A stretch of DNA of 64,000 bases from a virus (Duplodnaviria > Heunggongvirae > Uroviricota > Caudoviricetes), in IMG/VR virus record IMGVR_UViG_2563366947_000002, one strand, 5' to 3'. The translations under genes and the position numbers were made by a program. Positions within the stretch are counted from its first letter, which is position 1, and every line of letters begins with the position of its first letter. The notes under the pieces are model-generated. The model did not search any database. It had not been told where the DNA came from and saw only the letters and a program-made list of their open reading frames with translations. Positions 36,839 through 59,176 of this stretch are shown piece by piece.

Positions 36839-36857
36839 TTTTAGATTTCTAACACAT
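36839..36857 (-). promoter_or_regulatory. putative repressor operator
   Basis: TTTTAGATTTCTAACACAT (reverse orientation of consensus). Confidence 0.45.
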
Positions 36858-38065
36858 TATTTCCCGTAAAGATCTTCTACACCCCCATTCTTCTTATCCC
36901 ATTCGTTCGCCCATACCCGGCAAGCGTCAATGATTTCCTGACGACGATCTCCTTGCATGAACGGAATGCTTTCATGGAAACAGCTTGGAATGCAGGCCAC
37001 ACTGAATACAGTATCAAACTCCGTCTGCTTGATTGCCTCCAGCGTCTCCGGACGCATTTTTAATTCATCGATTGGCGCATCCTTTGAGTCCATAATCCGG
37101 CGATATAAGCGCGGAAAATCCGTCTCCAGGTACGCCATAATTTTATCTGCGAGACATTCGTCTATGTCGGTATTCCAGTCCTTTTCGAAGCCCGGCAGGC
37201 GATAGTAAAGCGGCGTTCCCCATACCGATGGGATCACATCCATCGTTAACAGGCGATTGGTTCTGATTTGTTGATGGTAATTAGCCGTCAGCAGTGCTTC
37301 GCCACGCTGCCCAGTTTCCGCAACCAGGCCGTGCGGATACTCATGGATGTAGGCAATGGCATCCCTTCCGTCATACATAAGTGGAAATGTCTCTGGTCTT
37401 TGTCCCATGCCACAAGCACGGTTCAGATCGTGACCAAGCTGTGAGCACTCTCGCTTTAATGTTTCGATAATGCTCTGCGCTGTAGCCAACTTTTTACGCA
37501 GTGTGACGCCTTCGCCTTGATAATCAATGCATTGCTGATTGAGCTTGGTTAAACGCTCTTTTAGTTCCCGGCGCTCTCTTTTCAGCGTGCGGTTATCCTT
37601 CTCCGCAACATCCAGCCGCTTTGTCAGGGTGGGCGGATAGTCTTTTTTGTAACGGTTCAAATCGGCTTCAGCAGATTTACGCAGTGTATTTGCCTGTTCA
37701 AGACGCGCTTCCAGATTGCCGATCTCATTACGCATATTCGTGGCAAATTGATTAACTGCATCACCCAGGCTTTCAACTGTCGCTGATACGCCTGTGACTT
37801 GTGAAAAACGGATCAAGCCATCATTAACGGCTTGTTGGTATTCCTCAAACTGATCCACCAGCTTATTGTAATCAACTGCCCCATCATCAAGCAGCTTGTT
37901 GATTTCCGCCACCAGGTTATCTGTAGTGGCAATGACACTCTCGTGCAGTCGCTTTGACAGGTCATCACCAGGATTCCGTTTCTGTATAAGAGCGATTTGT
38001 GTGCGCAGCGTTTCAATTGCTGTCGAGATAATTTCCAGATTAGAAGTATCAGTGTGTTGACTCAT
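36857..38065 (-). CDS. hypothetical protein
   Basis: ORF track 36857..38080 (GTG); ATG at 38065 also possible; operator copy lies just upstream. Confidence 0.45.
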   Translation of the reverse strand: MSQHTDTSNLEIISTAIETLRTQIALIQKRNPGDDLSKRLHESVIATTDNLVAEINKLLDDGAVDYNKLVDQFEEYQQAVNDGLIRFSQVTGVSATVESLGDAVNQFATNMRNEIGNLEARLEQANTLRKSAEADLNRYKKDYPPTLTKRLDVAEKDNRTLKRERRELKERLTKLNQQCIDYQGEGVTLRKKLATAQSIIETLKRECSQLGHDLNRACGMGQRPETFPLMYDGRDAIAYIHEYPHGLVAETGQRGEALLTANYHQQIRTNRLLTMDVIPSVWGTPLYYRLPGFEKDWNTDIDECLADKIMAYLETDFPRLYRRIMDSKDAPIDELKMRPETLEAIKQTEFDTVFSVACIPSCFHESIPFMQGDRRQEIIDACRVWANEWDKKNGGVEDLYGK

Positions 38066-38086
38066 TGCTGTTCCCGTCACTTTGTT

Positions 38087-38106
38087 AAATTAGTTTTCTA
38101 ACATAT
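38087..38106 (-). promoter_or_regulatory. putative repressor operator
   Basis: AAATTAGTTTTCTAACATAT. Confidence 0.5.
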
Positions 38107-38178
38107 TTTATTAGTTTGATGACGGTATCGGAAGATGCAATAAACAAAAAACCCGCTAATTGGCGGGTTTTTATGCAA

Positions 38179-38493
38179 TTACTGTGTTGCAGCCTGATAA
38201 ATAAGATACGCGATAAATACAGGTACGATGGCCCATTGCAGCAATGAAAGTAGCCTCATTACTGTTATTGGGGTAACTCCATCCACGTATTGTTTCTCTG
38301 ACATTTTCCCTAACCAACTAACCGACAACAGTGCCGAGTTTTCACCCAATTCCAGCTCTCTGAGAGCTTCACGGATTAACGGCGCTGTCACAGCCTGAAC
38401 CGGTGTGCTCAACGTGATACTCCGCGTCCTCCCCGCATCGTCAGCGAACGCCAGACTCACATAATATTTTTTGCTCAATGTACAAACTCCCAA
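38179..38493 (-). CDS. small membrane-anchored protein
   Basis: 104-aa ORF with C-terminal hydrophobic helix. Confidence 0.35.
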   Translation of the reverse strand: MGVCTLSKKYYVSLAFADDAGRTRSITLSTPVQAVTAPLIREALRELELGENSALLSVSWLGKMSEKQYVDGVTPITVMRLLSLLQWAIVPVFIAYLIYQAATQ

Positions 38494-38675
38494 TCATCAG
38501 CGCTTGCACTTTCCGGGGTTATGTGAACCTTATCGCCAGTAACAATATTGCGAGCTTCAAAACTTCCATTGATACGTTTCGAGATCTCAATACATAGAGC
38601 CTGCTGCCATGAGCGACGACGAGCGATAGCATTAGTTCCTGCAGGGATAAGTTCTGCCACGTTATGTAAACGCAA
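38475..38675 (-). CDS. hypothetical protein
   Basis: 66-aa ORF between neighbouring genes. Confidence 0.3.
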   Translation of the reverse strand: MRLHNVAELIPAGTNAIARRRSWQQALCIEISKRINGSFEARNIVTGDKVHITPESASADDWEFVH

Positions 38676-38689
38676 AACGATTTCTCCGT

Positions 38690-39184
38690 TTAATCAAGAC
38701 AAACATACTCCGTGATAGCTTTTATGGCTTCAGCGGCACTGCGCGCCTCAAAGCAGTAGTAACCGGCTTCTGTGAGGCGAGTCATCCAGACGAGTTGTTC
38801 GGGAGTCAGGCGATTTCTCCCATGTTTCATCTCAATGCGCATTCCGTGGTATCCCCCACAAGCAAGGTCTATAGAAAGATCGGGATATCCCTTCTTTTGG
38901 CCCTCTGCCACCATTTTTATTGCCGTCCTTATGCCTCGCAGGCCACCGTTTGGAGTGGCGTGAGTATGCTCATACACATAACGCATATTGCGATACATCC
39001 AGTCCAGGACGCGAACCTGCTCGTAATGCTCATGGTTCCTTTTGATTAGATCTGGGTTTTTCTCCAGTTCTCTAAGAGCTGCGGCATGTGGGGATGTTTC
39101 AGAATATTCACTGCGACGCCTTCTCTTTCGCGCTATTTTTCTAACACACCCATTGATAGTAAATATGCGAAATAATAACAACAA
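38690..39184 (-). CDS. VRR-NUC domain nuclease-like protein
   Basis: EQVRVLDW ... GYPDLSIDLACGGYHGMRIEMKHGRNRLTPEQ pattern of VRR-NUC; TTG start in track; operator motif inside first 20 codons so true start uncertain. Confidence 0.55.
   Translation of the reverse strand: MLLLFRIFTINGCVRKIARKRRRRSEYSETSPHAAALRELEKNPDLIKRNHEHYEQVRVLDWMYRNMRYVYEHTHATPNGGLRGIRTAIKMVAEGQKKGYPDLSIDLACGGYHGMRIEMKHGRNRLTPEQLVWMTRLTEAGYYCFEARSAAEAIKAITEYVCLD
39134..39150 (-). promoter_or_regulatory. putative repressor operator
   Basis: TATTTTTCTAACACACC. Confidence 0.4.
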
Positions 39185-39320
39185 CGTTAGATTTGTAAAA
39201 CAAGAGAGATACTACTCAAGGATGGTCTATATGCAACAGGTCGGATTTGCTTTTAGAGTAAAGAGCGACCTTAATCAACAAGGAGGGTAAATCGCATGGC
39301 ATTTACCCAACCTGTTATTT

Positions 39321-39581
39321 TTAAAGGGTTATTTTATCCTGTTCGGATAATTCTTTGATTGTCTTGTCGATTGCGATCAACCAACCTTCATAGGTTAAAT
39401 CATCAACAAGTTCTACCAACTTATCATCGGTGTGAGGAAAGTATATCCAGCTCCAGTTCGCAGGGTTTTCTGCTTTTCGCAGCGTAAAAACCTTCTTGTA
39501 TCGGTGGAACTCAAGGATATACCCCTTCGATATGGAATATTCCTTTAGGTCTTCGACCGTAAACCTACGATTCTTTCGCAT
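39321..39581 (-). CDS. hypothetical protein
   Basis: 86-aa ORF. Confidence 0.35.
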   Translation of the reverse strand: MRKNRRFTVEDLKEYSISKGYILEFHRYKKVFTLRKAENPANWSWIYFPHTDDKLVELVDDLTYEGWLIAIDKTIKELSEQDKITL

Positions 39582-39583
39582 GG

Positions 39584-40018
39584 CTACCCCATAATTCGAT
39601 ATTTCTCTATAGACTCGTCGTAACTTGTGTACACGTATGGCTCTGTATCATCGGCATAAGGTGCGACTTCCAGAGCATGAACAGGATTGTATACCGCGTC
39701 ATTTTCCAGGCGATCGCTCGAATACAGATGCCCAGCCAAAACCGTAAGCGCCGGGCGACTCATTTTGTAGATCTCTGCCACATCACTATCTACCACTTGT
39801 CCAAATGATATGTCGCCGCGCTCCAGCAATAACGTTTTAAGCGCAGGCCACCACGGCCCATAAAGGTGATAAAGCTGTGGATCTCGTTTCAGCCTTTCCA
39901 CCATGCCATTCAGATATGCATCCAGAAACGCCTCTTCACTCCTGCCATTGAGCGCCTGCGGCAAAATGTCCTCAAGGTAGGATTCCGTCGGTTTTACAGT
40001 GTCAATTAATGTCGTCAT
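39584..40018 (-). CDS. hypothetical protein
   Basis: 144-aa ORF downstream of giant gene. Confidence 0.4.
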   Translation of the reverse strand: MTTLIDTVKPTESYLEDILPQALNGRSEEAFLDAYLNGMVERLKRDPQLYHLYGPWWPALKTLLLERGDISFGQVVDSDVAEIYKMSRPALTVLAGHLYSSDRLENDAVYNPVHALEVAPYADDTEPYVYTSYDESIEKYRIMG

Positions 40019-40054
40019 TCAAATTCGGCCCCGGTTGGGGCCGCTCCTTATCTG

Positions 40055-43000
40055 TTAGGCCGCATCGGCGATTATTTTACGCAGTTCATCTACCGAGTAA
40101 CGCGTAGATACCATCCATGCAGGACGGTCAAAGTTCACATCAGCAACCGGGTTTGCTTCAAAATTCCAGAAACGCCCGCCAATCTTCTTAATCGCGTCTT
40201 TGGCGTTCCGTATTGTCGAGGAACCTGGTTGGTCGGCAATGAGATAAACCGCGCCAACGTCCTCGCTGACGCTCCACCAGCGCCCGCGAACACGCGCCTT
40301 AGCGCGAATCGGCTTATCATTAACCACAATGATATAGTCATCATTCGCCGCTTCATCAGCTCTGGCTTCAGCCACTGCCGCCTGCTCTTCTCTTTTGCTT
40401 TCAGCCTGCTCAAGCCTTTCCGCGATCTCTGATTCAGTGGCCCCGCCGTTTTTCAGCGATACATAGTCCTGCCACGTTGACGATTTGAGCGTATCCGGCA
40501 ACTCATTCACATAGTCGCCGTCTTTCAACTCACGGGCGCGGCGGGTAGCCATTTCTACCAGGCGATTAACAGAAACAGCATCAGCAAAATCGTCCTTACT
40601 AATGTGTTTTTCATCAAATGCATTGATGACAGCCCCCACCTTAATCCACTGTGCTGCCGGTGATTCCAGGGGGTTATCAGCCTGAACAATGGCGAGTTTC
40701 GCTCCATCTACCCCATTATTCGCCAGCTGTTCCAATGCCGCCCATCCATCTGCATCACTGAGTGATTTATATTGCTCAAACAATGCATCGCGCCAGGCCA
40801 CCAGCGCAGAACGTGTTTTTTCGATCTTCGCCTTAATTTTCGCGATCTTGACCTGATTAAACATCCGTTCAATATCATCGATATTGCTAAAGGCTTTCAT
40901 CCTGCCCTGGAATAAACGGTATGCCAGCACGGTCCTCCAGAATGATTCCAGACCTTCTCCGGACGGTTTGCGGAACAAGCTAAGAATATCTTCAGAAGTG
41001 ACTTTATTAAGCGAACGACCTGACAGACCACGCCCAGCCATCCAGTTTTCGAACTCCTGGGCAACATCATCCATCGTTGCCTGTGCGCCCCATGCCTGCA
41101 TTCCCTGGATGTAATCATACCCATACAATGCCTGGAGGAATCCCTCGCCGTCCACGATATTCAGCGGGTTATCACTGGCTTGTATTTTTGCCACTTCACG
41201 CTTCAGCGCCTCGTCGTTGCCATCAGGATATATCCATCGCTCAGGTGCTATATCCGATGCTCGCCCGATTTTTTGGCCTATCACGCCATCATAGGCCGAT
41301 GACAGCGCGATCTGACCATCATCTGTGCGATATGCCCAGTATTTAATAGCTGACCCACCGCCCCATGCATTACCAGGTTTACCAGCAATAACATTCATTA
41401 CCCCATTGCGAATAGCATCATAGAACTGATCGCGAGTAAGTATTGTTGATAGCTGGTGGCACTGAACACCTCGCGCAGCCGTTGCGCGCGATTCAGCTAC
41501 CCCCTCTTCAAAAGTTACCGCTTCAATCACAGAGTCAAACGGCAATGTAACGATTGACCCCGGTGCTCGAGCGTAACGACTTGCTCTATCCAGCCAGGCG
41601 ATACGGCAGAGGTATTGTGCTTTTTCACCGTCAATTTTTTCCACCCGGACAATCGCTGTTGTTTCGCGATCATCAATGACTGCACGGTAATAACTACCTT
41701 TATGCAACAGGATATTCTTGTCAGTGCGCATATATTCCTGTGGGTTCTGAATAACATCGATACTGATATCCAGCACACCAGACTTAATAGCGCGCTCCAC
41801 ATCACCACGAGAGCGTTTCATTATGGTATCCGCGTCTTTTGCCCTGGTGATCGCAAACCGCAGCACCCGCGCACGTTTTCTGTAGCTACTCAACTGCTCA
41901 AGCGCGTATTTTTGCCCATTCCTGTTCGTACCCGCTTTTATCAGGTCGTCAAGATTTCGCTGGTAATACTCTATCTGTTCCATCGCGCTTTTCAGTTCTG
42001 TCTCCATCATGCCGATATCTTTTCCGGCGGCGTTTGCCGCTTTCAGGTAGATATCGAGAGCATTGTTGGCCTCGCGCTGTGCTTTCAGTTTCAGACGTTC
42101 TTCACGCTCTTGCGCCTGGCGAGCCATGATTGCGCGGCGTTCTTCCGGGTTTGCCGCCAGCATAATGGCGCGTTCATCAGCATCATCCGCATCACCATTG
42201 GCGATCTCTGACATGTCGGAGGTCATCACCATCTTGATCCAGTCTTTCTTACGTTTAAGCGTATCCAGACGGAAGTCATCGAATGTGCCTTTGCCACAAT
42301 AGTAGTGAACATTGACCTTTTCTTGCGGTGAACCTACGCGCGCACCGCGCCCATTTCGTTGGTCGATACTGGCTGGTGTCCAGGGTAGTGTCAGGTGGTG
42401 GATATCGGTTGTCCCGATGTGCAGGTTAATACCTACTTCAGCCTTCTTGTTACAGATTATGATGCGCGTGCGACCTTCGTTATAGTCGGCGGCAATACCT
42501 TCCATGCCCTCAAGGCCAGCATCATTTTTAGCGGAGAGATAATCCTCATATTGGGCAAGTTTGCTGTAGTAGGTTTCCCATGCCCCTTCTTTGTATTCAC
42601 CGTTTTTGTTTGGAGTAGGTTCGGTCGGCTTATTCACCTTCTTCAGTTTGATGCCACCAGCCTGGCTAACTGTCGTCGCATTGATAATGCCAATCTCCTG
42701 CTCCGGCATTTGCAGTGCACTGGCGATAATACGGCGCAGCTTCTGGTGCTGGGCTTTTTCATCAATAAAGACGATCTGCTTACCGTTCTTCAGACCTTCA
42801 CGAAGATTTTCGATCAGCGCGGCATACTTCGGCGGGATGGGGTGCGATACCTGCTGCATATCAATGCCGGCAGCCGCAATGGCCTTCAGTATTTCAGCTT
42901 CCAGTTCAATGCTGGCACGTATTTCAACATGCGTCGGATGTTCACTAAAAGCGGTCTTCACTACCTTGCTGGTACGCGTACTGACCAGCCCGCCAGCGCC

Positions 43001-46000
43001 GTCTTCCTCGGCCTCATCAACATCATCTGCCACTTTACCGCCAGCTACTTTTGGCAAGGCATCAGCAATAGCTTTTACCTGGTCTGCAAGCTCAACGGGG
43101 AACTGGAATGTAATCGCACTGGCATACAGATCCGGGTCTATAGCAACCTTATCCATGTCACGGATGATGGAGAAGATGAAATCATCCGGTTTGTCGTTAG
43201 TGATATGCCCGTTTTCATCGACTGTCAGCTCATCATTGCGACTTAACTCCTGAGCACGCTTACGAAGCTCTTCATAAGCAGTCTCCTGCTCCCCTGTCAT
43301 CGGGATCTGCAAGGTGTTCTCGATGATGTCGGGAATTTTAACCGTCGCTCCGACATCTGCAGCAGTCTTCAGAGTGGCCCAACGATGGAAAATACCACGC
43401 AGGCCGTCAAGGTTCTGGAAGCCCACCAGCCCCTGCTTCTCTTCCACTTCCCCGGAAATTTTCTGGACCTGAACTGTGGCTGTTTTGCCAAACACACGAA
43501 CGAAATCATCAGGCGTAATGATGCCCATACGCATCCACTCTTCCTGCGGAATGACAGTAGACAGCATGTTGAAGGCATCAATCGGACTGTTCACCAGCGG
43601 TGTTGCCGTCAGCATGACTACACCACGCCCGTTGTTGCGTTTCATCATGTACGCAGCTTTTACAGCCATGTCGCGGGCCATCTTGGATACTGCCGGGTTA
43701 GGCAAATATGCCAGTTGTCCCGCTTCACGCCCGGCATTAAAGGAGTTGCGGTAGTTATGCCCCTCGTCGGCAATCACGCTATCGAAGTTCATATCCTCAA
43801 AGTACGGGATATTTTGCTTCTTCGTTGTACCGGTATTCGCGGCCTGATCCTTAATCTTGTTCTTCTTCTGCGCATCACGGTGTTTACCGGACGCCAGGTC
43901 AAGACGCCCCATTTCCACAGCATTAAAGACAGCTTGCTGTGAGTTCTCCTCGATGGTTTTTTCTCGTAGCGGGATAGACGCGAATTGTTCTTTTGTCATG
44001 ATGACCGTTCGCCAATTTGACGACGGGATCATGTTCATACGCTGAACGATAACGGCGCTGGAGGACTCTTTCACAACATTTCTGGTAAGAGGCTGCCCGT
44101 TACTGTCGAGGCGTGGTTCGCCATTTTCATCAAGCACCGGCGCGGTCAGAATATTTCCGCTGTCATCACGAACTTCATCCAAACCGATAAACATCATATT
44201 GGCGAAGGCGTCAGCACTGTAGAAACTCTGTGCCTCGTGATACCAGTTCTGATAAACCGCCTTCGGAACAACAATACACGTGCGTTTAGTGCGACCTGTT
44301 TCGAAGTTATACGCCTCAAGCGCAAGCGCGGTCGTGGTTTTACCCAGCCCGGTACCAAATCCCATGATGCCGCGCCCATCTTCTGACAAGCGCCGAACTT
44401 CTTCATTCTGATAAGTAAGAGGAATGCGCTTTCCACTAAGCCCTTCCAGGCCAAGCGGTGCGTCAGAATGCGTGAACGGAATGAAACCATTGAATGCGTC
44501 GTTATACTCGCGGGCTATCTGATCAGCCTGCGGGTGAGTGCGTAACCAGTCGTTAAAACTAACTTCCAGTTGAGCAATTTTATCCAGGTACTCGTTAGCG
44601 TTCTGCCCACGCGGTTTAACACCGTTCAGGTAGTTTTCTAACTGGTTCAGGAAGCCGTCTTTATTGTTGGCCTTCTTGAACTCATTCCCGTTTTTGCCGT
44701 TTACGGTTCGTAGCTGATAGCCGGTAAATACCCCGTCCTTACCTTCGTAATCGTCCGGAGATACCAGAATGCCATCGACGACCTTCAGATCAGGTTCAGT
44801 GTACTTAAACTCGTCATAGCCCTGCTCTGCCAGGAACTCTTTTATCAAGCGGCGATCCAGCCAGCGGGCATTCAGATTAACGGTGACTTTATTTAGTGGC
44901 GTGAAAATACGTTTCTCTTCGATTTTCGCCAACTGACGCTCAAAGTTCGCTTTCTGCTCACCTGTTGACGCATCACGCCAGCCCATCAGCAATGCTGTTT
45001 TGGTTGCAATATCGCCGCTGGTGGCGCGGTCCATCGGCAGCAGGCAGCCATACCCATCAATAGCGATATCATCAAATTTCGCCAGGAATTCAAGGGCCGC
45101 GTCGTCGTCCTCTGGCAGTTCACCAGCAAACGCCTCACGAAAGTCTCCCAGCGTTATAGGATTAAGGGCTACATCACTGAAAAGATGTGCTATCACTTGT
45201 TCAGGACGGGTAAAGTCAATACCGGCAGCACCATCCGTTACATCAAGTCGCCCTGCCAGAAGGTCAGAAGTGGAACCATCCTGTTTCACATTGCCAGTGA
45301 ACGTCATCCAGTTTTTAGCGCCAGCTTCAGCAAGCCCATTCAGCTTAATCGCGTGCGGTGGTCCATACTTCGCAACTTCTGCTGCCGCCAGGCGGGATGC
45401 ATCTGCCAGTTTGTCATCAACGTTCGCCCCCAGGTTACGCAAATCAAGTGCCTTGTTGATCAACTGCCCTATCAGCGCACCGCGCATAACGCGCTCTCTG
45501 TCTTTTTCTCGCTGCTTGTCAGCAAAGCGAATCATTGCTGCCACTTCATCACTGACAACCGATGGATAGTCGGACGCGATCGCCGATATCTGGTCCCATG
45601 ACAAAGCCAGAATCCCGTTTGTTGACTGGAACGCGATCTGCAGATCGCCAAACGTCGAAACACCATATCGACTTACATCAAGCGCGGAGGATTTGGTTGT
45701 CGTGTCCTTAACCCATTTCAGACCATCAAACTCATGCCAGATACCGCCTACAAGGCGTTTATCGCCCACTTTCGCGCCCTGCCATGCCTGAGTAGTTACG
45801 CCGAGCAAATCCCAATTGATGCGACTATCAAAGCGACGAGATAGCGCGGTTTTCATCGACTCATTGGATACACGACCGTCTTTTTTCACTACCAGGGTAT
45901 TGCGGAAGCTGGTGCGTTCCATGTCGCCGTAAACAAATCGCTTCCCTTCGGTTGTAAACCATTTCCCTTTGAGGAAGGTATCCCAAAGGACGTTTGCCGA

Positions 46001-46891
46001 TTTGAGCGTTGCATCATCCGTGTCGGGGATCATCTCCAGGAAGGTTTCCGGGTGTTTACGCAATACCCATACGTCCACCACGGTATCTGTACCGGATTCG
46101 CTGAACGTACCAGAAGGCATACGATGTGCGCCCAAAAATTCCGCTTTACGGCTGACTTTATCGCGCAATTTTTTGTATTTCGTACCATCGGTCATGCCAT
46201 TCGGCACCACCAATACAATTAGTCCACCAGGCTTAACCTTGTCGATCGTGCGCAACACAAAGTAATTGCCAACGTTCTTCTCGTTTGCATATGCCGGATC
46301 AAGCCCGGCAACGCCGGAACGCCCTTCACCAAACGGTACGTTACCAACAGCGTGGTCATACATTGCGTCTTTCGCCGCCAGTGCCTCAAACGCCCCGATA
46401 TTCACATCGTCTTCCGGGTGCAAAAGCTGGTTTATTCGACCAGAAATCGGAGACAGTTCGGCGCTGGTCATTATCATGCCCTGCCGTTTTGTCTCCTGGA
46501 AAATACCTGTGCCCGCTGATGGTTCCAGTACGTGCCCGCCATCAATACCGTAGTCAGCAAACAGATCCCATATACCTTCAGCCATAAACTGTGGCGTGTA
46601 GTATTCGTATTGGCTGCCCTCACCATCTGTCAGGCCACCTTCACCGGTATACCCGGCAAGAATCTGACGTTGTTCGTCAGTTAATTTCGCCCCATCGAAG
46701 CCGGGCGGAAGGGAATTAAGAAGATTTACTGCGGCGTTGTTTGCTGCCCGGCGTGTTTTCTGAATACTGACGCCATCGGCTTTCCTGACGCCAAAGGTCG
46801 CAACAGCACGTAATTTATGCAACCGACTAACAATCTCAATCAGTTCGCCTAAGCTGGAGGCTTCACTGATTGAATGAAGTAGTTTGTCCAA
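40055..46891 (-). CDS. darB: giant N6-adenine methyltransferase / SF2 helicase fusion protein (DarB-like antirestriction protein)
   Basis: About 2,278 aa from TTG at 46891 (GAGGGGG SD); MTase motif I VLEPSAGTGIF and motif IV GNVPFGEG near N-terminus; helicase motifs GLGKTT, VIADEGHNYRN, MLTATPLVNSP, QRNGRGAR; ORF-track N-terminal extension to 47080 runs into the IS. Confidence 0.6.
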   Translation of the reverse strand: MDKLLHSISEASSLGELIEIVSRLHKLRAVATFGVRKADGVSIQKTRRAANNAAVNLLNSLPPGFDGAKLTDEQRQILAGYTGEGGLTDGEGSQYEYYTPQFMAEGIWDLFADYGIDGGHVLEPSAGTGIFQETKRQGMIMTSAELSPISGRINQLLHPEDDVNIGAFEALAAKDAMYDHAVGNVPFGEGRSGVAGLDPAYANEKNVGNYFVLRTIDKVKPGGLIVLVVPNGMTDGTKYKKLRDKVSRKAEFLGAHRMPSGTFSESGTDTVVDVWVLRKHPETFLEMIPDTDDATLKSANVLWDTFLKGKWFTTEGKRFVYGDMERTSFRNTLVVKKDGRVSNESMKTALSRRFDSRINWDLLGVTTQAWQGAKVGDKRLVGGIWHEFDGLKWVKDTTTKSSALDVSRYGVSTFGDLQIAFQSTNGILALSWDQISAIASDYPSVVSDEVAAMIRFADKQREKDRERVMRGALIGQLINKALDLRNLGANVDDKLADASRLAAAEVAKYGPPHAIKLNGLAEAGAKNWMTFTGNVKQDGSTSDLLAGRLDVTDGAAGIDFTRPEQVIAHLFSDVALNPITLGDFREAFAGELPEDDDAALEFLAKFDDIAIDGYGCLLPMDRATSGDIATKTALLMGWRDASTGEQKANFERQLAKIEEKRIFTPLNKVTVNLNARWLDRRLIKEFLAEQGYDEFKYTEPDLKVVDGILVSPDDYEGKDGVFTGYQLRTVNGKNGNEFKKANNKDGFLNQLENYLNGVKPRGQNANEYLDKIAQLEVSFNDWLRTHPQADQIAREYNDAFNGFIPFTHSDAPLGLEGLSGKRIPLTYQNEEVRRLSEDGRGIMGFGTGLGKTTTALALEAYNFETGRTKRTCIVVPKAVYQNWYHEAQSFYSADAFANMMFIGLDEVRDDSGNILTAPVLDENGEPRLDSNGQPLTRNVVKESSSAVIVQRMNMIPSSNWRTVIMTKEQFASIPLREKTIEENSQQAVFNAVEMGRLDLASGKHRDAQKKNKIKDQAANTGTTKKQNIPYFEDMNFDSVIADEGHNYRNSFNAGREAGQLAYLPNPAVSKMARDMAVKAAYMMKRNNGRGVVMLTATPLVNSPIDAFNMLSTVIPQEEWMRMGIITPDDFVRVFGKTATVQVQKISGEVEEKQGLVGFQNLDGLRGIFHRWATLKTAADVGATVKIPDIIENTLQIPMTGEQETAYEELRKRAQELSRNDELTVDENGHITNDKPDDFIFSIIRDMDKVAIDPDLYASAITFQFPVELADQVKAIADALPKVAGGKVADDVDEAEEDGAGGLVSTRTSKVVKTAFSEHPTHVEIRASIELEAEILKAIAAAGIDMQQVSHPIPPKYAALIENLREGLKNGKQIVFIDEKAQHQKLRRIIASALQMPEQEIGIINATTVSQAGGIKLKKVNKPTEPTPNKNGEYKEGAWETYYSKLAQYEDYLSAKNDAGLEGMEGIAADYNEGRTRIIICNKKAEVGINLHIGTTDIHHLTLPWTPASIDQRNGRGARVGSPQEKVNVHYYCGKGTFDDFRLDTLKRKKDWIKMVMTSDMSEIANGDADDADERAIMLAANPEERRAIMARQAQEREERLKLKAQREANNALDIYLKAANAAGKDIGMMETELKSAMEQIEYYQRNLDDLIKAGTNRNGQKYALEQLSSYRKRARVLRFAITRAKDADTIMKRSRGDVERAIKSGVLDISIDVIQNPQEYMRTDKNILLHKGSYYRAVIDDRETTAIVRVEKIDGEKAQYLCRIAWLDRASRYARAPGSIVTLPFDSVIEAVTFEEGVAESRATAARGVQCHQLSTILTRDQFYDAIRNGVMNVIAGKPGNAWGGGSAIKYWAYRTDDGQIALSSAYDGVIGQKIGRASDIAPERWIYPDGNDEALKREVAKIQASDNPLNIVDGEGFLQALYGYDYIQGMQAWGAQATMDDVAQEFENWMAGRGLSGRSLNKVTSEDILSLFRKPSGEGLESFWRTVLAYRLFQGRMKAFSNIDDIERMFNQVKIAKIKAKIEKTRSALVAWRDALFEQYKSLSDADGWAALEQLANNGVDGAKLAIVQADNPLESPAAQWIKVGAVINAFDEKHISKDDFADAVSVNRLVEMATRRARELKDGDYVNELPDTLKSSTWQDYVSLKNGGATESEIAERLEQAESKREEQAAVAEARADEAANDDYIIVVNDKPIRAKARVRGRWWSVSEDVGAVYLIADQPGSSTIRNAKDAIKKIGGRFWNFEANPVADVNFDRPAWMVSTRYSVDELRKIIADAA

Positions 46892-46899
46892 AGGATTAC

Positions 46900-48340
46900 C
46901 CCCTCTAAACCGTAAAAATTCCGCTATGCGGTACGGTTGAGAGGGTATGGAGAATGTTATTTTCAGCGAAAACCGCCGAGAACCCTCGCCCAGTGCTGGC
47001 GGGGAGGAACGGCGGAAAAGCCCAAAGGGCTTTAAAAAAATCATTACGGTGTTAGCATAAAAGCCTGTATCAATGAGCAATGACTATGTTAAGAGCGACA
47101 AAAGTACGTATATACCCCACTCCTGAACAGGCTGAATTTCTCAACGCCCAGTTCGGTGCGGTGCGTTTTGCGTACAACAAAGCTCTTCACATCAAAAAAC
47201 ATGCTTACCAGCGACACGGAGTAAATTTAAGTCCGCGTAACGATCTGAAACCGTTGTTGTCTGTGGCCAAAAAGTCCCGCAGATATGCCTGGCTCAAAGA
47301 GTTTGATTCAATGGCATTGCAACAGGCGGTAATTAATCTTGATGTGGCATTTTCCAACTTTTTTAATCCGAAGCTGAAAGCCCGGCTTCCGACTTTCAAG
47401 AGAAAGAACGGCTGGCAATCCAGCTATCACTGTGTCGGGATTAAGGTTCTGGATAATGCCATCAAAATCCCCAAACTTTCCCCGATTGAGGCACGCCTTC
47501 ATCGTGAACTTCATGGAAAGCTGAAAAGCATCACTATCACTCGTTCTGCGACGGGGAAATATTATGCGTCGCTACTCTGCGATGATGGCATGGAAACGCC
47601 AGCCAGACCTTCCATGATATCCCGCGTGACGGGGATAGATATGGGATTATCGCACTATGCCATCAAGTCCGATGGGGTAAAAGTTGCTAACCCTCGCCAT
47701 CTCATCAATGCCAGCCGTAATCTGCGACGCAAACAAAAAGCGTTATCTCGCAAGCAAAAGGGAAGCGCAAATCGCAAAAAGGCCAGAATCCGTCTGGCAG
47801 CGTTACACGAACGGGTAGCCAGTGCCCGTGCCGATTTCCAGCACAAGTTATCTCGCGCAATTGTTGACGAAAACCAAGCGGTAATTGTGGAGACACTGAA
47901 AAAAGCCAACATGATGAAAAACCACAATCTGGCGAGAGCGATAGGTGATGCCAGCTGGCACAGTTTCATCGCAAAGCTGGAGTACAAGGCGATGGAAAAA
48001 GGCGTTCACCTGGTAAAACTCGACCAATGGTTTGCCAGTTCGAAAACGTGCCATTGTTGTGGTTACAAAATGCCGGAAATGCCACTTCATAAACGCATCT
48101 GGCGATGCCCGGAATGCAGTATTGAACATGATCGCGACATCAATGCGGCACTCAATATCCGGCAAAAAGGAATACTGGAACTACAGGCGGCGGGACTCGT
48201 CGTTTCTGCCCATGGAGGCCAGCGTAAATCCGTCATACAGACGGTTGCGGCCTAAGAAGTGGGAAGCCTCGCCCGACAGGGCGGGGAGCAGTCACGGGGA
48301 CGATACTACCGTCAAAATCACATACTCCCCATAGTTTGCC
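46900..48340 (+). mobile_element. IS200/IS605-family insertion sequence carrying tnpB only; boundaries approximate
   Basis: Intact tnpB flanked by subterminal imperfect hairpins (CGCC...GGCG near 46986-47003 and CGCCC-gaca-GGGCG near 48270-48287); no tnpA. Confidence 0.6.
47080..48255 (+). CDS. tnpB: TnpB (OrfB) RNA-guided endonuclease-type transposase accessory protein
   Basis: 391 aa; MLRATKVRIYPTPEQ N-terminus, RuvC-like GIDMG, zinc finger CHCCGY...CPEC, C-terminal HDRDINAALNI. Confidence 0.85.
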   Translation: MTMLRATKVRIYPTPEQAEFLNAQFGAVRFAYNKALHIKKHAYQRHGVNLSPRNDLKPLLSVAKKSRRYAWLKEFDSMALQQAVINLDVAFSNFFNPKLKARLPTFKRKNGWQSSYHCVGIKVLDNAIKIPKLSPIEARLHRELHGKLKSITITRSATGKYYASLLCDDGMETPARPSMISRVTGIDMGLSHYAIKSDGVKVANPRHLINASRNLRRKQKALSRKQKGSANRKKARIRLAALHERVASARADFQHKLSRAIVDENQAVIVETLKKANMMKNHNLARAIGDASWHSFIAKLEYKAMEKGVHLVKLDQWFASSKTCHCCGYKMPEMPLHKRIWRCPECSIEHDRDINAALNIRQKGILELQAAGLVVSAHGGQRKSVIQTVAA

Positions 48341-48370
48341 TACTTATTAACCCATGACCGGGAGAAAAAT

Positions 48371-48856
48371 ATGGCAAACATTGAACCTCGCTGGCTAATT
48401 GAAGCCCGTAAGCACATTGGCCTGACTGAAATAAAAGGCGCTAAACACAACCCTGAAATCGTTCAGTTCTGGCGCGACATCAAGCGCGGCGGAATTAAAG
48501 ACGATGAAACGCCGTGGTGCGCAGCATTTGTCGGTGCAATGCTGGAACGTGTAGGCATCCGCTCAACAAGATTTGAGTCGGCAAAATCCTATCTGGATTG
48601 GGGCGAGAAATTAGATACACCGGCATACGGATGTATCGTTGTATTTACCCGCGTAGGCGGTGGGCACGTAGGCTTCGTTGTCGGACGCCGCGCCAATGGC
48701 GATCTGCTTGTCCTGGGTGGGAACCAGGGGGATGCGGTTAATATTCGCGCATTCCCAACATCAAGAGTGTCTGGCTATCGCTGGCCTGCTGGCGAACCAC
48801 GCAATACCGCTCTGTTACCAGTCGGAGACGCAGCAACCTCAACTAATGAGGCATGA
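48371..48856 (+). CDS. NlpC/P60- or CHAP-like putative peptidoglycan hydrolase (tentative)
   Basis: 161 aa; TPWCAAFVGAML cysteine and GGGHVGFVVG histidine contexts. Confidence 0.4.
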   Translation: MANIEPRWLIEARKHIGLTEIKGAKHNPEIVQFWRDIKRGGIKDDETPWCAAFVGAMLERVGIRSTRFESAKSYLDWGEKLDTPAYGCIVVFTRVGGGHVGFVVGRRANGDLLVLGGNQGDAVNIRAFPTSRVSGYRWPAGEPRNTALLPVGDAATSTNEA

Positions 48857-48879
48857 AAAAGCCCCGGCCAGGCCGGGGC
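48856..48879 (-). terminator. minus-strand terminator hairpin
   Basis: GCCCCGGCC-a-GGCCGGGGC followed on minus strand by TTTTT. Confidence 0.5.
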
Positions 48880-48887
48880 ATCACGCT

Positions 48888-54289: not shown

Positions 54290-54353
54290 GAATCACCGCA
54301 AATTGTTTCCAGTTTTGCGGCAGCATAATCAGTATGTGATTTCAGCGGTTGGC

Positions 54354-55833: not shown

Positions 55834-56202
55834 TTACCCGGCATAACCGTTAGCTTTCACCCAGCTTATGGTCTGCTCTTTAGCCTGCTCCAACGTAAGG
55901 AACTCGCCAACATAGTTTGAGATCCCACGCAGCGCATCAATAAATTCCATTTGTGTGGACTTTGTGAAGACACCGCCCAGGAAGTCAGTCACTATCTTAG
56001 GGACTTCATCTACAACAGGATCAGTCTGTTGTTGCGGTTCCGCTGCCGGTTGCGCGGCAGTCCCCAGGCCCAATTTCAGCATCACATCAACAATCTGCTT
56101 ACCAATGGTGACGCGTTGCAATACTGGCGCAGTTTTCTGCGCCTGCATTAGATCTGATAGCTCTTTACCTAATTTCAGGCGGTCTAAAACAGAGATGGTC
56201 AT
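55834..56202 (-). CDS. hypothetical protein
   Basis: 122-aa ORF. Confidence 0.4.
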   Translation of the reverse strand: MTISVLDRLKLGKELSDLMQAQKTAPVLQRVTIGKQIVDVMLKLGLGTAAQPAAEPQQQTDPVVDEVPKIVTDFLGGVFTKSTQMEFIDALRGISNYVGEFLTLEQAKEQTISWVKANGYAG

Positions 56203-58127
56203 TAAGCACCTCCCTGCTGAATTTCAGCCAGAATGTTGATCAGGTAGTCAACTGCTGCACCAACAGTGGCTTCGTTCTCGTCGTATCGACCTGCACTGAT
56301 TAGAGCGTTTGCTGCTTCCTGCACATGATCAAGTTCAGCACTGATGACCGTCAGATCGCGGGATGTAAACTGCTCCGGCACGGATTTCAGATACTCCAGC
56401 GCTTTATCTGCCTCCTGATCAGCTTCACTTGCTGATTCACCAGCTTCTTCTGGCTCCGGCTCCTGTTCTGGTGCTGGTTGTGGTTGTGATTCCGGCTCAA
56501 CCACATGCTCTGTTTTTACTTCGCTTGAATGATTTTGAAGGGCGTTATACACGTCCATAATGAAAAGGTTCTCCCCATCACCAAGTGGATACGCCACATT
56601 TGGAAACGCTTTGCGGAAAAGAATTTTCACTTGCGCCTTGAATGTTTTCAGGTCACTGCCAAACAGGTCTACATAGCCATCAATATGTTTCGACATGCTG
56701 GACACAACCAATTGGCCTGCAAAATCTTTCAGCTCATCTTCATCAGGAAGATAGAGCAACTCGTACTGGCTGACTTCTTCATCTGTCAGTTTACGGTCAT
56801 ACGTAATGATACCGTGACGAGCATATTCGTAATACTGATCAGCCTGGTCAGGACGATCAAGCACGGCTTTATTTCCATCCGGCACAGCACCAACACCAGC
56901 CGGGCGAGATTGAAGTGCATAGTGGTATTTACCTACATCTTGGCTCTCTGGTTGTGATACTGGGTTCGTCTCGGGGTCTGTCTGTGGTGGTTCGGAGTCT
57001 TCCTGCTGGCCTGGTAACACATCAACTTTATATTTATCTGCGTTATGCTCTCGGTAGGCTTTAAGTAATTTGGTTGCAGCATCTGCCAAACTGCCTCCTT
57101 TGACAGCACTGGCATCAATACTGAATTTACCTTCAGGTGCTACTATCGTAACGAAATTGTCACTGCCGGACGTGACATAATTAACTTCAGCGCCATTATC
57201 CAGCACTGTTTTTCCGTCAATGGCAAGATTATGTTTTACATGTCGCAGCTGGTCACTAAACGCTCGTTCCTTCGTTTTTTCACCTTTAGCAGACAACAAT
57301 TTATCGCGTTTTTCTTGTAATTCCTCGTTGATGGCTTTCTGGGCATCAAGTTTTTTTTGCATCTCCGTAAGAGCAGCACGCTTTTCAGTCAGCCCACGTT
57401 GCGCAACGTCCACCTGATCAATCATTATTGACCGTTCTTCTGCCAGTTTATCTGCTTCATTGAGATAACTCTCAATATCTGCCTTCATTTTGTCCTGGCG
57501 CTCTTTTGCTTTCTTAAATTTTTCGCTGTTACGCTCAATCAAATTAGATAGCGCCTGGCATACCTGGCTTAAAGAAACATCTCTCCCACCAATCGGGGCG
57601 ACAACGTGAGTTACGTTACGCTTATTAAGTAAAAACTGAAATGCAACAAGCTCGTCGTTACTCTTTATTTTTGCCCCGTCAGCTGTTGGAGAGTGGAAAA
57701 TTATGCTTGTACTCTGCCCGTCAGTAAGCGGTATCTGCGCGGTCAAAACAGGGATATTAGCTACCCGACGTACACGACCGATAATCGCACCACCAATACA
57801 ATTACGTCCATTTTCATCGGTCCCGGCTTCATCAGTCCCTGCCATAATATTCGTACCATTCAGGCCACGATTCAGCGCACGGACGAAAGCTCGCATTGTT
57901 TGAGCTAACCGAATTCTGGTTGTAGTTATGGACTCAAACATAGCTTCGTCAGACACAACCAGAATTTCATTGCCCATATAGGCAAGCTCAATATCTTCTA
58001 AGGTCGCCGCCTCAAAAATCAGGTCATCTTCGCTTAATTCTTCTGAAGACCAGCGACTTGGCATATAGCCGGGGATCGTATCAGCAAAAGTAGACTGAAT
58101 ATTAATTCGTAAAGGATTGTTAATCAT
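56202..58127 (-). CDS. large hypothetical virion protein (DarA-like by size/position, tentative)
   Basis: ORF track 56202..58166; ATG at 58127 has GGAGG SD; coiled-coil centre, acidic P/E-rich C-terminal region. Confidence 0.3.
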   Translation of the reverse strand: MINNPLRINIQSTFADTIPGYMPSRWSSEELSEDDLIFEAATLEDIELAYMGNEILVVSDEAMFESITTTRIRLAQTMRAFVRALNRGLNGTNIMAGTDEAGTDENGRNCIGGAIIGRVRRVANIPVLTAQIPLTDGQSTSIIFHSPTADGAKIKSNDELVAFQFLLNKRNVTHVVAPIGGRDVSLSQVCQALSNLIERNSEKFKKAKERQDKMKADIESYLNEADKLAEERSIMIDQVDVAQRGLTEKRAALTEMQKKLDAQKAINEELQEKRDKLLSAKGEKTKERAFSDQLRHVKHNLAIDGKTVLDNGAEVNYVTSGSDNFVTIVAPEGKFSIDASAVKGGSLADAATKLLKAYREHNADKYKVDVLPGQQEDSEPPQTDPETNPVSQPESQDVGKYHYALQSRPAGVGAVPDGNKAVLDRPDQADQYYEYARHGIITYDRKLTDEEVSQYELLYLPDEDELKDFAGQLVVSSMSKHIDGYVDLFGSDLKTFKAQVKILFRKAFPNVAYPLGDGENLFIMDVYNALQNHSSEVKTEHVVEPESQPQPAPEQEPEPEEAGESASEADQEADKALEYLKSVPEQFTSRDLTVISAELDHVQEAANALISAGRYDENEATVGAAVDYLINILAEIQQGGA

Positions 58128-58740
58128 GCTCATCCTCCAGGCGCGCAATTTCTTCTTTAAGAGCACGTGTCTTAGCTACTTCCTGAGACAAGGCAGCTTT
58201 AACGTTACCCGTATCTTGCATTACTTTGTCTGACTTGCTCTGGAGTTTAGACAGTTTGTCGTTAGCATTAGCGATATCTCCACGGAGTGCATCACGTGAT
58301 TCTTTCGCTTCAGCTAATTTCTGAGCGTTAGATTTAACTCCCTGCTGCTTCTTATTTCCGTCATCAATATTTTTTGCTGCACGAGCAAGTTTTCGAGCTA
58401 ATGACTTCTGGAAAGAAGTTGCTCCGCGATTAAATAAAGCCGCAAGAGATTGCCCCAAAGCCGACATTGTTTTTACTGGCTTGAACGGTACTGTTTTACC
58501 ATTCAGTTTGATCCCAGATATATCACCGGTATCGTTAACCTGAACTTCCATTGTCTGTTCATCAATACCAATAAGGGTAAACGTGCGCGTCATGATCCCA
58601 TCTTTCTTCCTGCCATTACTTGCAGGGATCACCCTCGCTATCTTGTAACCACCTTTGCTGATTTCTTTGACGAGTTTTGCCAGCCCCTTTTCGTTTAACT
58701 CATCATAATTAAGAAGAACATAATTATTCTTATTTGACAT
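58120..58740 (-). CDS. hypothetical protein
   Basis: ORF track 58120..58755; ATG at 58740 has AAGGAG SD. Confidence 0.4.
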   Translation of the reverse strand: MSNKNNYVLLNYDELNEKGLAKLVKEISKGGYKIARVIPASNGRKKDGIMTRTFTLIGIDEQTMEVQVNDTGDISGIKLNGKTVPFKPVKTMSALGQSLAALFNRGATSFQKSLARKLARAAKNIDDGNKKQQGVKSNAQKLAEAKESRDALRGDIANANDKLSKLQSKSDKVMQDTGNVKAALSQEVAKTRALKEEIARLEDEHD

Positions 58741-59176
58741 CCCAGTCTCCTTCACGCTTTTCGATCGTAAACTGGCGCTCTATGCAGTCATTGATAGGGA
58801 AAATGCGATAAAGCGGATTCAGTCGGCAGTTACCGTTAGTCAATGTGACTTTCAGATCCCACTTCGTTGGCTCAAGATATTTCGTATCGATGAGCAAATA
58901 CTCTTCTCTCTCACCGCGTTTTGAGGCGTCAACTGGTCGCGTTTTCCCTGAAATAACCACAGATGGATTTTTCAGGTCTTGCAACCAATATTCGATTTGA
59001 GCATTGCTGACCCAGCTTCGCTTAACACGTAGCGAAACAGGAAATGCTATAGCGGATTCTTTCACTACAGCGTCACCAATACTCAAAATCTCAACACTCT
59101 TGCGACGAAAAATGAAACGGTCAATGATGGCAACAAATGCCATGATAAAAATGAAATAATTTCCAAAGTTACCCAT
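58730..59176 (-). CDS. membrane-anchored protein (possible antiholin/lysis regulator by position)
   Basis: 148 aa with N-terminal transmembrane helix; TAATG overlap with upstream gene. Confidence 0.3.
   Translation of the reverse strand: MGNFGNYFIFIMAFVAIIDRFIFRRKSVEILSIGDAVVKESAIAFPVSLRVKRSWVSNAQIEYWLQDLKNPSVVISGKTRPVDASKRGEREEYLLIDTKYLEPTKWDLKVTLTNGNCRLNPLYRIFPINDCIERQFTIEKREGDWDVK

What the first reader, a model, noticed from the sequence alone, without database searches (positions are those of the whole stretch)
40055..46891. Giant methyltransferase-helicase fusion (DarB-like), likely virion-packaged antirestriction protein
A single roughly 2,278-aa ORF combines N6-adenine methyltransferase motifs (FxGxG, NPPF-like NVPFG) with a full SF2/SNF2-type helicase motif set. 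This matches the domain logic described for P1 DarB, which protects incoming DNA from type I restriction. The real start is probably the TTG at 46891, not the ORF-track start at 47080.
Basis: partly seen in the sequence, partly recalled or inferred. Interest (0 to 1): 0.55.

Follow-up and report, generated by a model that had tools for sequence, protein, structure and literature searches.

The report
D6-type DarB antirestriction protein gene

Summary
Window 40055..46891 (- strand) is an intact 2,278-aa ORF. It is 99.4% identical in protein (2264/2278) to orf15 of Escherichia phage D6, which GenBank annotates as "similar to P1 gene darB; defense against restriction". It aligns end to end with P1 DarB (2,255 aa, 43% identity).

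MTase motifs (YYTP, EPSAGTG, NVPF) and SNF2 helicase motifs (GTGLGKT, DEGH, TATP, QRNGRGAR) are intact. dN/dS is 0.12.

The TTG at 46891 is the true start. It aligns with P1 Met1 and matches the D6 and PGAP annotations. The 47080 start is an artefact of a 1-nt indel plus an insertion element.

ulx lies directly downstream, and hdf-darA-ddrA-ddrB are also in the window, so the full six-gene Dar system is present. Virion packaging and type I antirestriction are inferred by homology only.

New relative to D6:
- A 1,329-bp IS200/IS605 TnpB-only element (46967..48295) splits the only sigma70-like promoter upstream of darB.
- A conserved leader hairpin occludes the Shine-Dalgarno sequence and the start codon.

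Verdict: already known, low interest.

The parts
40055..46891 (-). darB coding sequence (2,278 aa plus stop), TTG start
46802..46891 (-). aa 1-30, positional equivalent of the P1 DarB capsid-targeting sequence; only 8/30 residues identical to P1 and 0/5 in P1 residues 6-10
   Evidence: alignment; P1 data from PMC9024508
45992..46801 (-). aa 31-300: LPD36-like region (GEGG 83-86) plus gamma-class N6-adenine methyltransferase core (YYTP 97-100, EPSAGTG 123-129, NVPF 184-187)
   Evidence: PMC5512222
44435..45991 (-). aa 301-819: linker of unknown function, conserved with P1 (29-47% identity), no Pfam match
42092..44434 (-). aa 820-1600: SWI2/SNF2-type SF2 ATPase with a large insert between the two lobes (motifs I, II, III, VI)
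40058..42091 (-). aa 1601-2278: DarB-specific C-terminal module (long helices plus two small SH3/Tudor-like beta-barrels in the AF2 model); fastest-diverging part
46887..46951 (-). 5' leader hairpin pairing anti-SD CCCUCU with SD AGAGGG and UCCA with part of the UUG start codon
46899..46906 (-). Shine-Dalgarno AGAGGGGG, 7 nt upstream of the TTG
46959..46964 (-). GAAAAT, the -10-like half of the D6 sigma70-like promoter TTGACG-16-GAAAAT; its -35 half now lies beyond the IS at about 48311-48316
   Evidence: consensus match only
46967..48295 (+). 1,329-bp IS200/IS605-family TnpB-only element, absent from D6 and inserted without target duplication between TTTTCAG and GGGGACG
47080..48255 (+). tnpB (391 aa), divergent from darB
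39584..40018 (-). ulx homologue (144 aa), directly downstream of darB as in P1
54354..55751 (-). ddrB homologue (maximal ORF; matches only the N-terminal half of P1 DdrB, 64% identity)
55834..56202 (-). ddrA homologue
56202..58166 (-). darA homologue (maximal ORF, start not refined)
58120..58755 (-). hdf homologue (maximal ORF, start not refined)

Best explanation
The ORF is the D6-lineage orthologue of phage P1 DarB, the largest component of the six-protein Dar (defence against restriction) system of P1-like plasmid prophages.

Shown here:
- End-to-end homology with P1 DarB.
- Intact N6-adenine methyltransferase and SNF2 ATPase catalytic motifs.
- Strong purifying selection across the ORF.
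- A linked ulx gene and a complete hdf-darA-ddrA-ddrB set.
- A genome that carries EcoKI and EcoBI target sites.

Inferred from P1 work:
- The protein is made late in infection.
- It is recruited through its N-terminus into procapsids already primed with Hdf/DarA, then DdrA and DdrB, with Ulx assisting.
- It is carried at tens of copies per head and ejected with the DNA.
- It protects that DNA molecule in cis against EcoK/EcoB-type type I restriction.

Mechanism I consider most likely (inference, about 50%): the SNF2 motor moves the enzyme along the entering duplex while the fused gamma-class methyltransferase deposits N6-methyladenine. Type I target sites would then become hemi- or fully methylated before the slow, translocation-dependent type I nuclease can cut.

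In this particular genome, expression may be altered. A TnpB insertion element lies 75 bp upstream of the start codon, between the -35 and -10 of the only sigma70-like promoter seen in D6.
For: - 99.4% protein identity to D6 orf15, annotated as the darB homologue.
- 43% identity to P1 DarB over the full length, with N-termini aligned from residue 1.
- PHROG hits to the DarB/D6 families across the full length.
- Pfam MTase and SNF2 domains, and motifs invariant between P1 and D6.
- The MTase and helicase cores are the most conserved segments (53-56% and 61-69% identity to P1) and have the lowest dN/dS (0.05-0.06). The C-terminal third is 21-31% identical.
- ulx is 46% identical to P1 Ulx and sits directly downstream. 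hdf is 40%, darA 39%, ddrA 33% and ddrB 64% identical to the P1 proteins.
- The window holds 7 EcoKI and 15 EcoBI sites.
- P1 DarB is found in the virion proteome at about 40 copies, with an N-terminal 30-aa capsid-targeting signal (PMC9024508).
- The translocating-methylase hypothesis comes from PMC5512222.
Against: - I found no experimental data for any D6-type DarB.
- The N-terminal 30 residues share only 8/30 identities with the P1 targeting signal, and none in P1 residues 6-10.
- The biochemical mechanism of P1 DarB itself is still undefined (PMC11109961; PMC12707154). Plasmid-based DarB assays were shown to be confounded by Chi/EcoKI-site-driven restriction alleviation.
- Here an IS separates darB from all native upstream sequence beyond -75. 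A stable leader hairpin also occludes the SD and start codon. Expression level in this genome is therefore uncertain.
- As I recall it from Iida et al. 1987 (not re-read here), Dar does not protect against type II and III enzymes. If so, a non-specific m6A methylase would need a kinetic argument to explain that.
Confidence: 0.85

Rival explanations
1. Same protein, different mechanism. DarB protects without methylating. Its SNF2 motor would displace or stall-proof type I complexes on the entering DNA, or the protein would simply coat and shield the DNA. The MTase fold would serve only for DNA or SAM binding.
For: - Dar acts strictly in cis, and physical shielding is the hypothesis favoured in the review PMC12707154.
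- The helicase core is the single most conserved segment (61-69% identity to P1).
- About 40 copies per head is few for methylating a roughly 90-kb genome unless the enzyme is processive.
Against: - Every catalytic MTase motif (TP, motif I, NVPF) is invariant between proteins that are only 43% identical. The MTase region has dN/dS 0.05, which is hard to explain for a vestigial domain.
- Stalled translocation triggers type I cleavage rather than preventing it (established enzymology, from my own knowledge).
Confidence: 0.3
2. The gene is intact but functionally silenced in this genome. The TnpB element cut its promoter, so this prophage would produce DarB-poor, restriction-sensitive virions.
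For: - The IS lies between the -35 (TTGACG) and -10 (GAAAAT) of the only sigma70-like site upstream of darB in D6.
- No consensus promoter faces darB from the IS left end.
- None of 113 D6-like plasmids in PLSDB, and none of 5,426 complete E. coli genomes, carries the insertion. That fits a rare, possibly deleterious, allele.
Against: - The promoter is only a consensus match (9/12). The true late promoter of darB is unknown.
- A second lineage (L005) carries an IS at the identical site, with darB intact and dN/dS 0.12 between the two.
- The leader, SD and start codon are untouched.
Confidence: 0.25
3. It is not an anti-defence protein but a prophage-encoded defence or R-M-like enzyme, for example DISARM DrmD-like, or a type ISP/III-like methylase-helicase.
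For: - Weak NCBIfam hits of the helicase C-lobe to DISARM DrmD, DpdE and a Dnd restriction enzyme.
- The closest solved structure by sequence is a type I MTase subunit (7eew, E = 1e-3).
Against: - Those scores are 28-45 bits against curated cut-offs of 500-1,100.
- No nuclease domain was detected.
- There is full-length orthology to DarB, and the gene sits beside ulx among head-morphogenesis genes.
Confidence: 0.03

Closest known systems
Escherichia phage D6 orf15 (ASR76325.1, MF356679) and its copies in D6-like plasmid prophages such as Salmonella Typhimurium pYU39_89
   Same: - Same gene: 2264/2278 residues identical to D6 orf15.
- Same CDS length and TTG start.
- Same neighbours (ulx, CHAP hydrolase gene).
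- 99.6% nucleotide identity to the pYU39_89 copy.
   Different: - 14 amino-acid substitutions.
- One T fewer in the leader loop.
- A 1,329-bp TnpB element inserted 75 bp upstream, which none of these records has.
Phage P1/P7 DarB (YP_006479.1, 2,255 aa)
   Same: - Collinear architecture: N-terminal signal region, LPD36-like region, gamma-class N6A MTase, linker, SNF2 ATPase, C-terminal module.
- All catalytic motifs present.
- darB-ulx gene pair, and a partner hdf-darA-ddrA-ddrB operon.
   Different: - Only 43% identical overall and 21-31% in the last 680 aa.
- N-terminal targeting residues are not conserved.
- D6-type DdrB lacks the C-terminal half of P1 DdrB, which the P1 record notes as a possible metallopeptidase.
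- A TTG start and an SD-occluding leader hairpin that P1 lacks.
- The upstream neighbour is a CHAP hydrolase gene rather than prt.
DarB-like 'polyvalent' methylase-helicase giants of other phages and conjugative elements (Iyer et al. 2017; phrog_10089, e.g. Bcep22-like podophages)
   Same: They share the MTase-SNF2 dyad and the TP / NPP(Y/F) features.
   Different: - Those proteins are 3,700-4,600+ aa and carry extra effector domains.
- The match covers only the dyad (four stretches, 276 bits, against 2,033 bits to the P1-type family).
- The C-terminal module here is confined to DarB-sized proteins of about 1,650-2,300 aa.
IS200/IS605-family TnpB-only elements (e.g. ISEc46 in phage RCS47), for the upstream insert
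   Same: - Full-length TnpB (HTH_OrfB, OrfB_IS605, TNB domains).
- No target duplication.
- Subterminal hairpins.
- 81% nucleotide identity to ISEc46, and up to 90.7% to copies on E. coli plasmids.
   Different: - No tnpA inside the element.
- No copy more than 91% identical in PLSDB or in complete E. coli genomes.

Membership tests
P1 DarB family (Dar antirestriction system) | Collinear full-length sequence homology to P1 DarB | tested here: met
   867/2000 identities in the printed BLASTP alignment, E = 0. MAFFT gives 43% identity over 2,171 aligned columns, from residue 1 to the C-terminus.
P1 DarB family (Dar antirestriction system) | Gamma-class N6-adenine MTase core with an N-terminal TP motif, motif I, and an NPP(Y/F)-type motif IV | tested here: met
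   YYTP 97-100, EPSAGTG 123-129 and NVPF 184-187, all invariant with P1. Pfam N6_Mtase scores 20.4 bits, exactly at its gathering score. Closest solved structure by sequence is the type I MTase subunit 7eew.
P1 DarB family (Dar antirestriction system) | LPD36-type N-terminal helical domain with a GxG(G/A/S) motif | tested here: met
   G83-E-G-G86 lies within QRQILAGYTGEGG, which is invariant with P1. No Pfam model matched this segment, so this rests on the motif and the alignment only.
P1 DarB family (Dar antirestriction system) | SWI2/SNF2-type SF2 ATPase C-terminal to the MTase | tested here: met
   SNF2-rel_dom E = 3e-12, plus ResIII and Helicase_C. Motifs I, II (DEGH), III and VI are present.
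P1 DarB family (Dar antirestriction system) | ulx immediately downstream | tested here: met
   39584..40018 (-), 46% identical to P1 Ulx, and PHROG 'Ulx-like anti-restriction' at E = 2e-59.
P1 DarB family (Dar antirestriction system) | Partner genes hdf, darA, ddrA and ddrB in the same genome | tested here: met
   40%, 39%, 33% and 64% identity to the P1 proteins. DdrB covers only the N-terminal half of P1 DdrB.
P1 DarB family (Dar antirestriction system) | N-terminal capsid-targeting signal and presence in virions | not testable with these tools
   Only 8/30 N-terminal residues are identical to P1. The P1 data come from PMC9024508.
P1 DarB family (Dar antirestriction system) | cis protection of ejected DNA from EcoK/EcoB type I restriction | not testable with these tools
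   Needs efficiency-of-plating assays. The window does carry 7 EcoKI and 15 EcoBI sites.
DISARM DrmD / other defence-system SNF2 helicases | Score at or above the NCBIfam equivalog cut-off | tested here: not met
   44.5 bits against a cut-off of 610, and 31.1 against 950. Only the helicase C-lobe matches.
IS200/IS605 TnpB element (upstream insert) | Full-length TnpB with OrfB_IS605 and zinc-ribbon TNB domains | tested here: met
   Pfam E-values 2.6e-24, 6.5e-24 and 9e-20. NCBIfam guided_TnpB scores 338 bits against a cut-off of 100.
IS200/IS605 TnpB element (upstream insert) | Insertion without target-site duplication, next to a short target motif | tested here: met
   D6 reads TTTTCAG|GGGGACG. 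The window reads TTTTCAG[CGAAAACC...GCAGTCAC]GGGGACG.
IS200/IS605 TnpB element (upstream insert) | Subterminal hairpins at both ends | tested here: inconclusive
   The left-end hairpin has z = -2.49. The right end forms an 8-bp hairpin, but that is no better than shuffled sequence (z = -0.63).
IS200/IS605 TnpB element (upstream insert) | Y1 transposase TnpA (autonomous element) | tested here: not met
   The 1,329-bp element holds only 113 nt, then tnpB (1,176 nt), then 40 nt. It is therefore non-autonomous.

The most novel reading that the evidence does not exclude
D6-type darB may be under translational control, and in this lineage the TnpB element may be more than a passive insertion.

1. 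Leader hairpin. It would keep DarB translation off until a late-phase event opens it.
2. TnpB element. Its right-end flank (GGGGACGATACTACC) would form the omega-RNA guide, and the left flank (TTCAG) would act as the TAM. Together they reconstitute exactly the empty site of IS-free D6-like plasmids.
3. Consequence. TnpB could cleave competing IS-free D6-like phage-plasmids at their darB promoter. That would either home the element into them or exclude them.
Probability: 0.12. Interest if true: 0.5.

Novelty: already known. Interest (0 to 1): 0.18.

Why it matters
The mechanism of DarB is still unsolved, although the Dar system has been known since 1987. A second orthologue, 43% identical to P1 DarB, helps in three ways:
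- It marks which residues are truly constrained, namely both enzymatic cores.
- It shows that the N-terminal targeting region and the C-terminal third are free to diverge.
- It therefore helps in designing catalytic and packaging mutants.

All of this is already available from the public D6 record. The window adds a natural allele in which a TnpB element splits the putative darB promoter, and a conserved SD-occluding leader. Both are modest leads for studying how DarB dosage is controlled.

Tried and rejected
- P1-type late promoter. I searched for AAGTNAYTW-N4-TANNNT, derived from LPdar, LPlyz and LPpro. It was not found upstream of darB. The window has one exact match and three with one mismatch allowed, which is no more than chance. 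The real darB promoter therefore remains unknown.
- Pfam on the N-terminal 90 aa, the 301-820 linker and the C-terminal 678 aa: no hits even at E = 1.
- Word-indexed homologue search with the C-terminal module: returned only close fragments.
- AlphaFold2 model of the C-terminal module. It was confident locally (pLDDT 85) but had a low pTM of 0.44. Foldseek against PDB and BFVD gave no match at E <= 0.001, only generic Tudor/SH3/KOW-like barrels and coiled coils. No function was assigned.
- RNAalifold on seven leader variants: no formally double-sided compensatory pair, because indels shift the register. The case for the hairpin rests on independent folding of each variant.
- Exact-junction scan of GTDB genomes: nothing found. 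The host species is inferred only from the nearest plasmids, which are Salmonella enterica.
- Papers not held in the library: Piya et al. 2017 (PMC6011833) and Gilcrease & Casjens 2018 (PMC5800970). Their content is cited only through later papers and the GenBank notes.
- The ORF downstream of ulx (39321..39581) is not the P1 lxc homologue.

Full report
**Observation.** The - strand carries one uninterrupted ORF from 47080 to the stop at 40055 (2,341 aa). Read from the TTG at 46891 it is 2,278 aa, 252.5 kDa, pI 5.5. Pfam places an N6_Mtase domain at aa 152-282, an SNF2-related domain at 840-964, ResIII at 826-1048 and Helicase_C at 1464-1520. Each is at or above its gathering score.

**What the window is.** Megablast against phage records gives 99.2% nucleotide identity over 98% of the ORF to Escherichia phage D6 (MF356679 / NC_050154), a P1-like plasmid prophage. 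D6 orf15 has exactly the same 6,837-nt CDS. The window protein differs from it at 14 of 2,278 residues. The nearest plasmids are D6-like plasmids of Salmonella enterica, including pYU39_89 of S. Typhimurium ST213, at 99.6% identity. In all, 113 PLSDB plasmids carry the gene at 80% coverage or more. PGAP usually names it only 'SNF2-related protein' or 'DEAD/DEAH box helicase family protein'.

**Relation to P1 DarB.**
- BLASTP and MAFFT show one collinear alignment from residue 1 to the C-terminus, 43% identical overall.
- Identity in 100-aa bins is 53-56% in the MTase region, 61-69% in the two helicase lobes, 29-47% in the linker, and 21-31% over aa 1601-2278.
- PHROG profiles agree. There is a full-length match to the D6-type family and a 2,033-bit match to the P1-type family. 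There is only a partial, dyad-only match to the giant 'DarB-like antirestriction' family of other phages.
- No DarB structure is in the PDB. The only sequence hit there is a type I R-M methyltransferase subunit (7eew, E = 1e-3). This fits the EcoKI/TaqI-like classification of Iyer et al. 2017 (PMC5512222).

**Start codon.**
- The TTG at 46891 is preceded by AGAGGGGG at a 7-nt spacing.
- It aligns with P1 Met1 (M-x-K-L).
- It is the start used in the D6 record and by PGAP.
- In D6 an in-frame stop lies 11 codons upstream with no other start codon in between.
- In the window a 1-nt deletion in a T-run shifts the frame, and an insertion element supplies 38 further open codons. This creates the spurious start at 47080.

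**A gene under selection.** I compared the window with the IMG/VR relative L005, which is 94.6% identical across darB. Of 364 substitutions, 257 fall at codon position 3. Nei-Gojobori dN/dS is 0.12 overall, 0.05 in the MTase and 0.06 in the helicase N-lobe. No amino-acid change occurs in aa 1-90 or 1461-1600. Segment 1601-1800 has dS 0.79 against roughly 0.04-0.36 in the other segments. That points to a recombined, mosaic segment rather than positive selection (dN/dS 0.18).

**Context.**
- Immediately downstream is a ulx homologue (39584..40018, 46% identity, PHROG 'Ulx-like anti-restriction').
- Further along the same strand are ddrB (64% identity, to the N-terminal half of P1 DdrB only), ddrA (33%), darA (39%) and hdf (40%), followed by lydB and lydA.
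- All six Dar components known from P1 are therefore present.
- The window holds 7 EcoKI and 15 EcoBI sites, so the phage is a potential type I target.
- It also holds 40 Chi sites against about 2 expected from sequence length (my estimate). The P1 genome is likewise reported as Chi-enriched, and P1 darB carries 11 Chi sites against 6 here.

**How it most likely works.**

What P1 experiments show:
- DarB is in the virion proteome.
- About 40 copies are carried per head.
- It is the last Dar protein added.
- Its N-terminal 30 residues suffice for capsid targeting (PMC9024508).
- Incorporation depends on Hdf/DarA and then the other Dar proteins (PMC12810830).
- Dar acts only in cis on the packaged DNA (PMC12707154).
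- Deletion of darB sensitises P1 to EcoB and EcoK (PMC11109961).

The biochemical mechanism is explicitly undefined.

What I infer: my data show that the two enzymatic cores are the most constrained parts across 43%-identical orthologues. This argues that catalysis matters. I therefore favour, at about 50%, the Iyer et al. model of an ATP-driven translocating N6-adenine methylase that modifies the entering DNA. A methylation-independent motor or shield model gets about 30%.

Transfer of the packaging inference to D6 is weakened by one point. Only 8 of the 30 N-terminal residues are identical to P1, and none of P1 residues 6-10. However, the partner proteins are equally diverged, which would fit co-evolution.

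**C-terminal module.**
- Residues 1601-2278 have no Pfam match.
- An exhaustive HMMER scan of 1.84 billion representative proteins found only 26 clusters. Every long one is a protein of about 1,650-2,300 aa that matches through its C-terminal end.
- An AlphaFold2 model (pLDDT 85, pTM 0.44) shows long helices and two small beta-barrels.
- Foldseek found nothing significant in PDB or BFVD, only Tudor/SH3/KOW-like barrels at E > 0.1.

Its role is unknown.

**What is different here: an insertion element.**
- Relative to D6, 1,329 bp are inserted at 46967..48295. The junction reads TTTTCAG[CGAAAACC...GCAGTCAC]GGGGACG, with no target duplication.
- The insert encodes a full-length TnpB (47080..48255, + strand) and no TnpA.
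- It is 81% identical to ISEc46 and at most 90.7% identical to any plasmid or E. coli copy.
- It sits 75 bp upstream of the darB start. It falls between the -35 (TTGACG) and -10 (GAAAAT) of the only sigma70-like site that the scan finds upstream of darB in D6. That site is a consensus match only.
- None of the 113 PLSDB D6-like plasmids, and none of 5,426 complete E. coli genomes, has this insertion.
- One IMG/VR contig (L005) has an IS at the identical junction. Its IS is only 94.7% identical, while the immediate flanks are 98.7-100% identical.
- The empty D6 site equals the left-flank motif plus the right-flank sequence. This is the configuration that a TnpB guide would recognise. That is an inference, not a test.

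**What is different here: a leader hairpin.**
- The 65 nt before and overlapping the start codon (46887..46951) fold at -28.6 kcal/mol, z = -4.3. CCCUCU pairs with the SD AGAGGG, and UCCA pairs across the UUG.
- Four D6-type variants whose leader-plus-5′-coding segment is 76-96% identical fold into the same nested architecture (z from -3.0 to -4.4).
- They carry changes on both arms: CCCUCU/AGAGGG becomes CCCUUU/GAAGGG, and an apical U.G pair becomes A-U.
- RNAalifold scores no formal double-sided covariation on the gapped alignment.
- P1 has no such structure (z = -0.4).

This may be a translational brake on a protein needed in only tens of copies per virion. It is untested.

**Verdict.** It restates an existing public annotation of a well-known protein family, so I rate it already known and low interest. 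The IS insertion and the leader hairpin are minor new leads.

Noticed in passing
window 46967-48295: A 1,329-bp IS200/IS605-family TnpB-only element (tnpB 47080..48255, + strand) is inserted without target duplication between darB and the divergent CHAP hydrolase gene. It splits the D6 sigma70-like promoter TTGACG-16-GAAAAT. It is absent from D6, from 113 PLSDB D6-like plasmids and from 5,426 complete E. coli genomes.
   Followed up: yes
window 46887-46951 (- strand): A stable darB leader hairpin (-28.6 kcal/mol, z = -4.3) sequesters the Shine-Dalgarno sequence and part of the UUG start codon. The architecture is kept in D6-type variants whose leader region is 76-82% identical, and it is absent in P1.
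   Followed up: partly
L005 (IMGVR_UViG_2778261667_000007), locus 1-13343 = window 36776-50115: This relative has an IS at the identical junction. Its IS is only 94.7% identical, while the adjacent leader and CHAP-side flanks are 98.7-100% identical. This suggests either independent or homing insertion, or mosaic recombination.
   Followed up: partly
window 41492-42091 (darB aa 1601-1800): This segment has dS 0.79 and 44 amino-acid changes against L005, compared with dS of about 0.04-0.36 in the other segments. It is probably a recombined allele inside the C-terminal module.
   Followed up: partly
window 54290-54353: D6 orf23 and orf24 (about 1.1 kb between the portal gene prt and ddrB) are missing. 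In the window, prt is followed almost directly by ddrB.
   Followed up: no
window 54354-55751: The D6-type DdrB (about 455-465 aa) matches only the N-terminal half of P1 DdrB (995 aa), at 64% identity. The C-terminal half is absent; the P1 record notes DdrB as a possible metallopeptidase.
   Followed up: partly
window 13008-13095 and 50065-50150 (also 13140-13218 isrK, 50219-50271 c4-a1b1): There are two separate C4 antisense RNA loci, each next to paralogous icd/ant-like sequence. The element therefore seems to carry two immI-type immunity modules.
   Followed up: no
window 61256-63948: The invertible tail-fibre C-segment lies in the opposite orientation to the D6 GenBank record (Cin/cix inversion state).
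   Followed up: no
whole window: Chi (GCTGGTGG) is strongly over-represented: 40 sites in 64 kb (14 on the + strand, 26 on the - strand), including 6 inside darB. There are no EcoKI or EcoBI sites inside darB, but 7 and 15 in the window.
   Followed up: partly
window 33859-33931, 35472-35544, 35550-35622 (- strand): Three tRNA genes, matching in number the tRNA genes annotated in the corresponding part of D6 (Ser, Thr, Asn).
   Followed up: no
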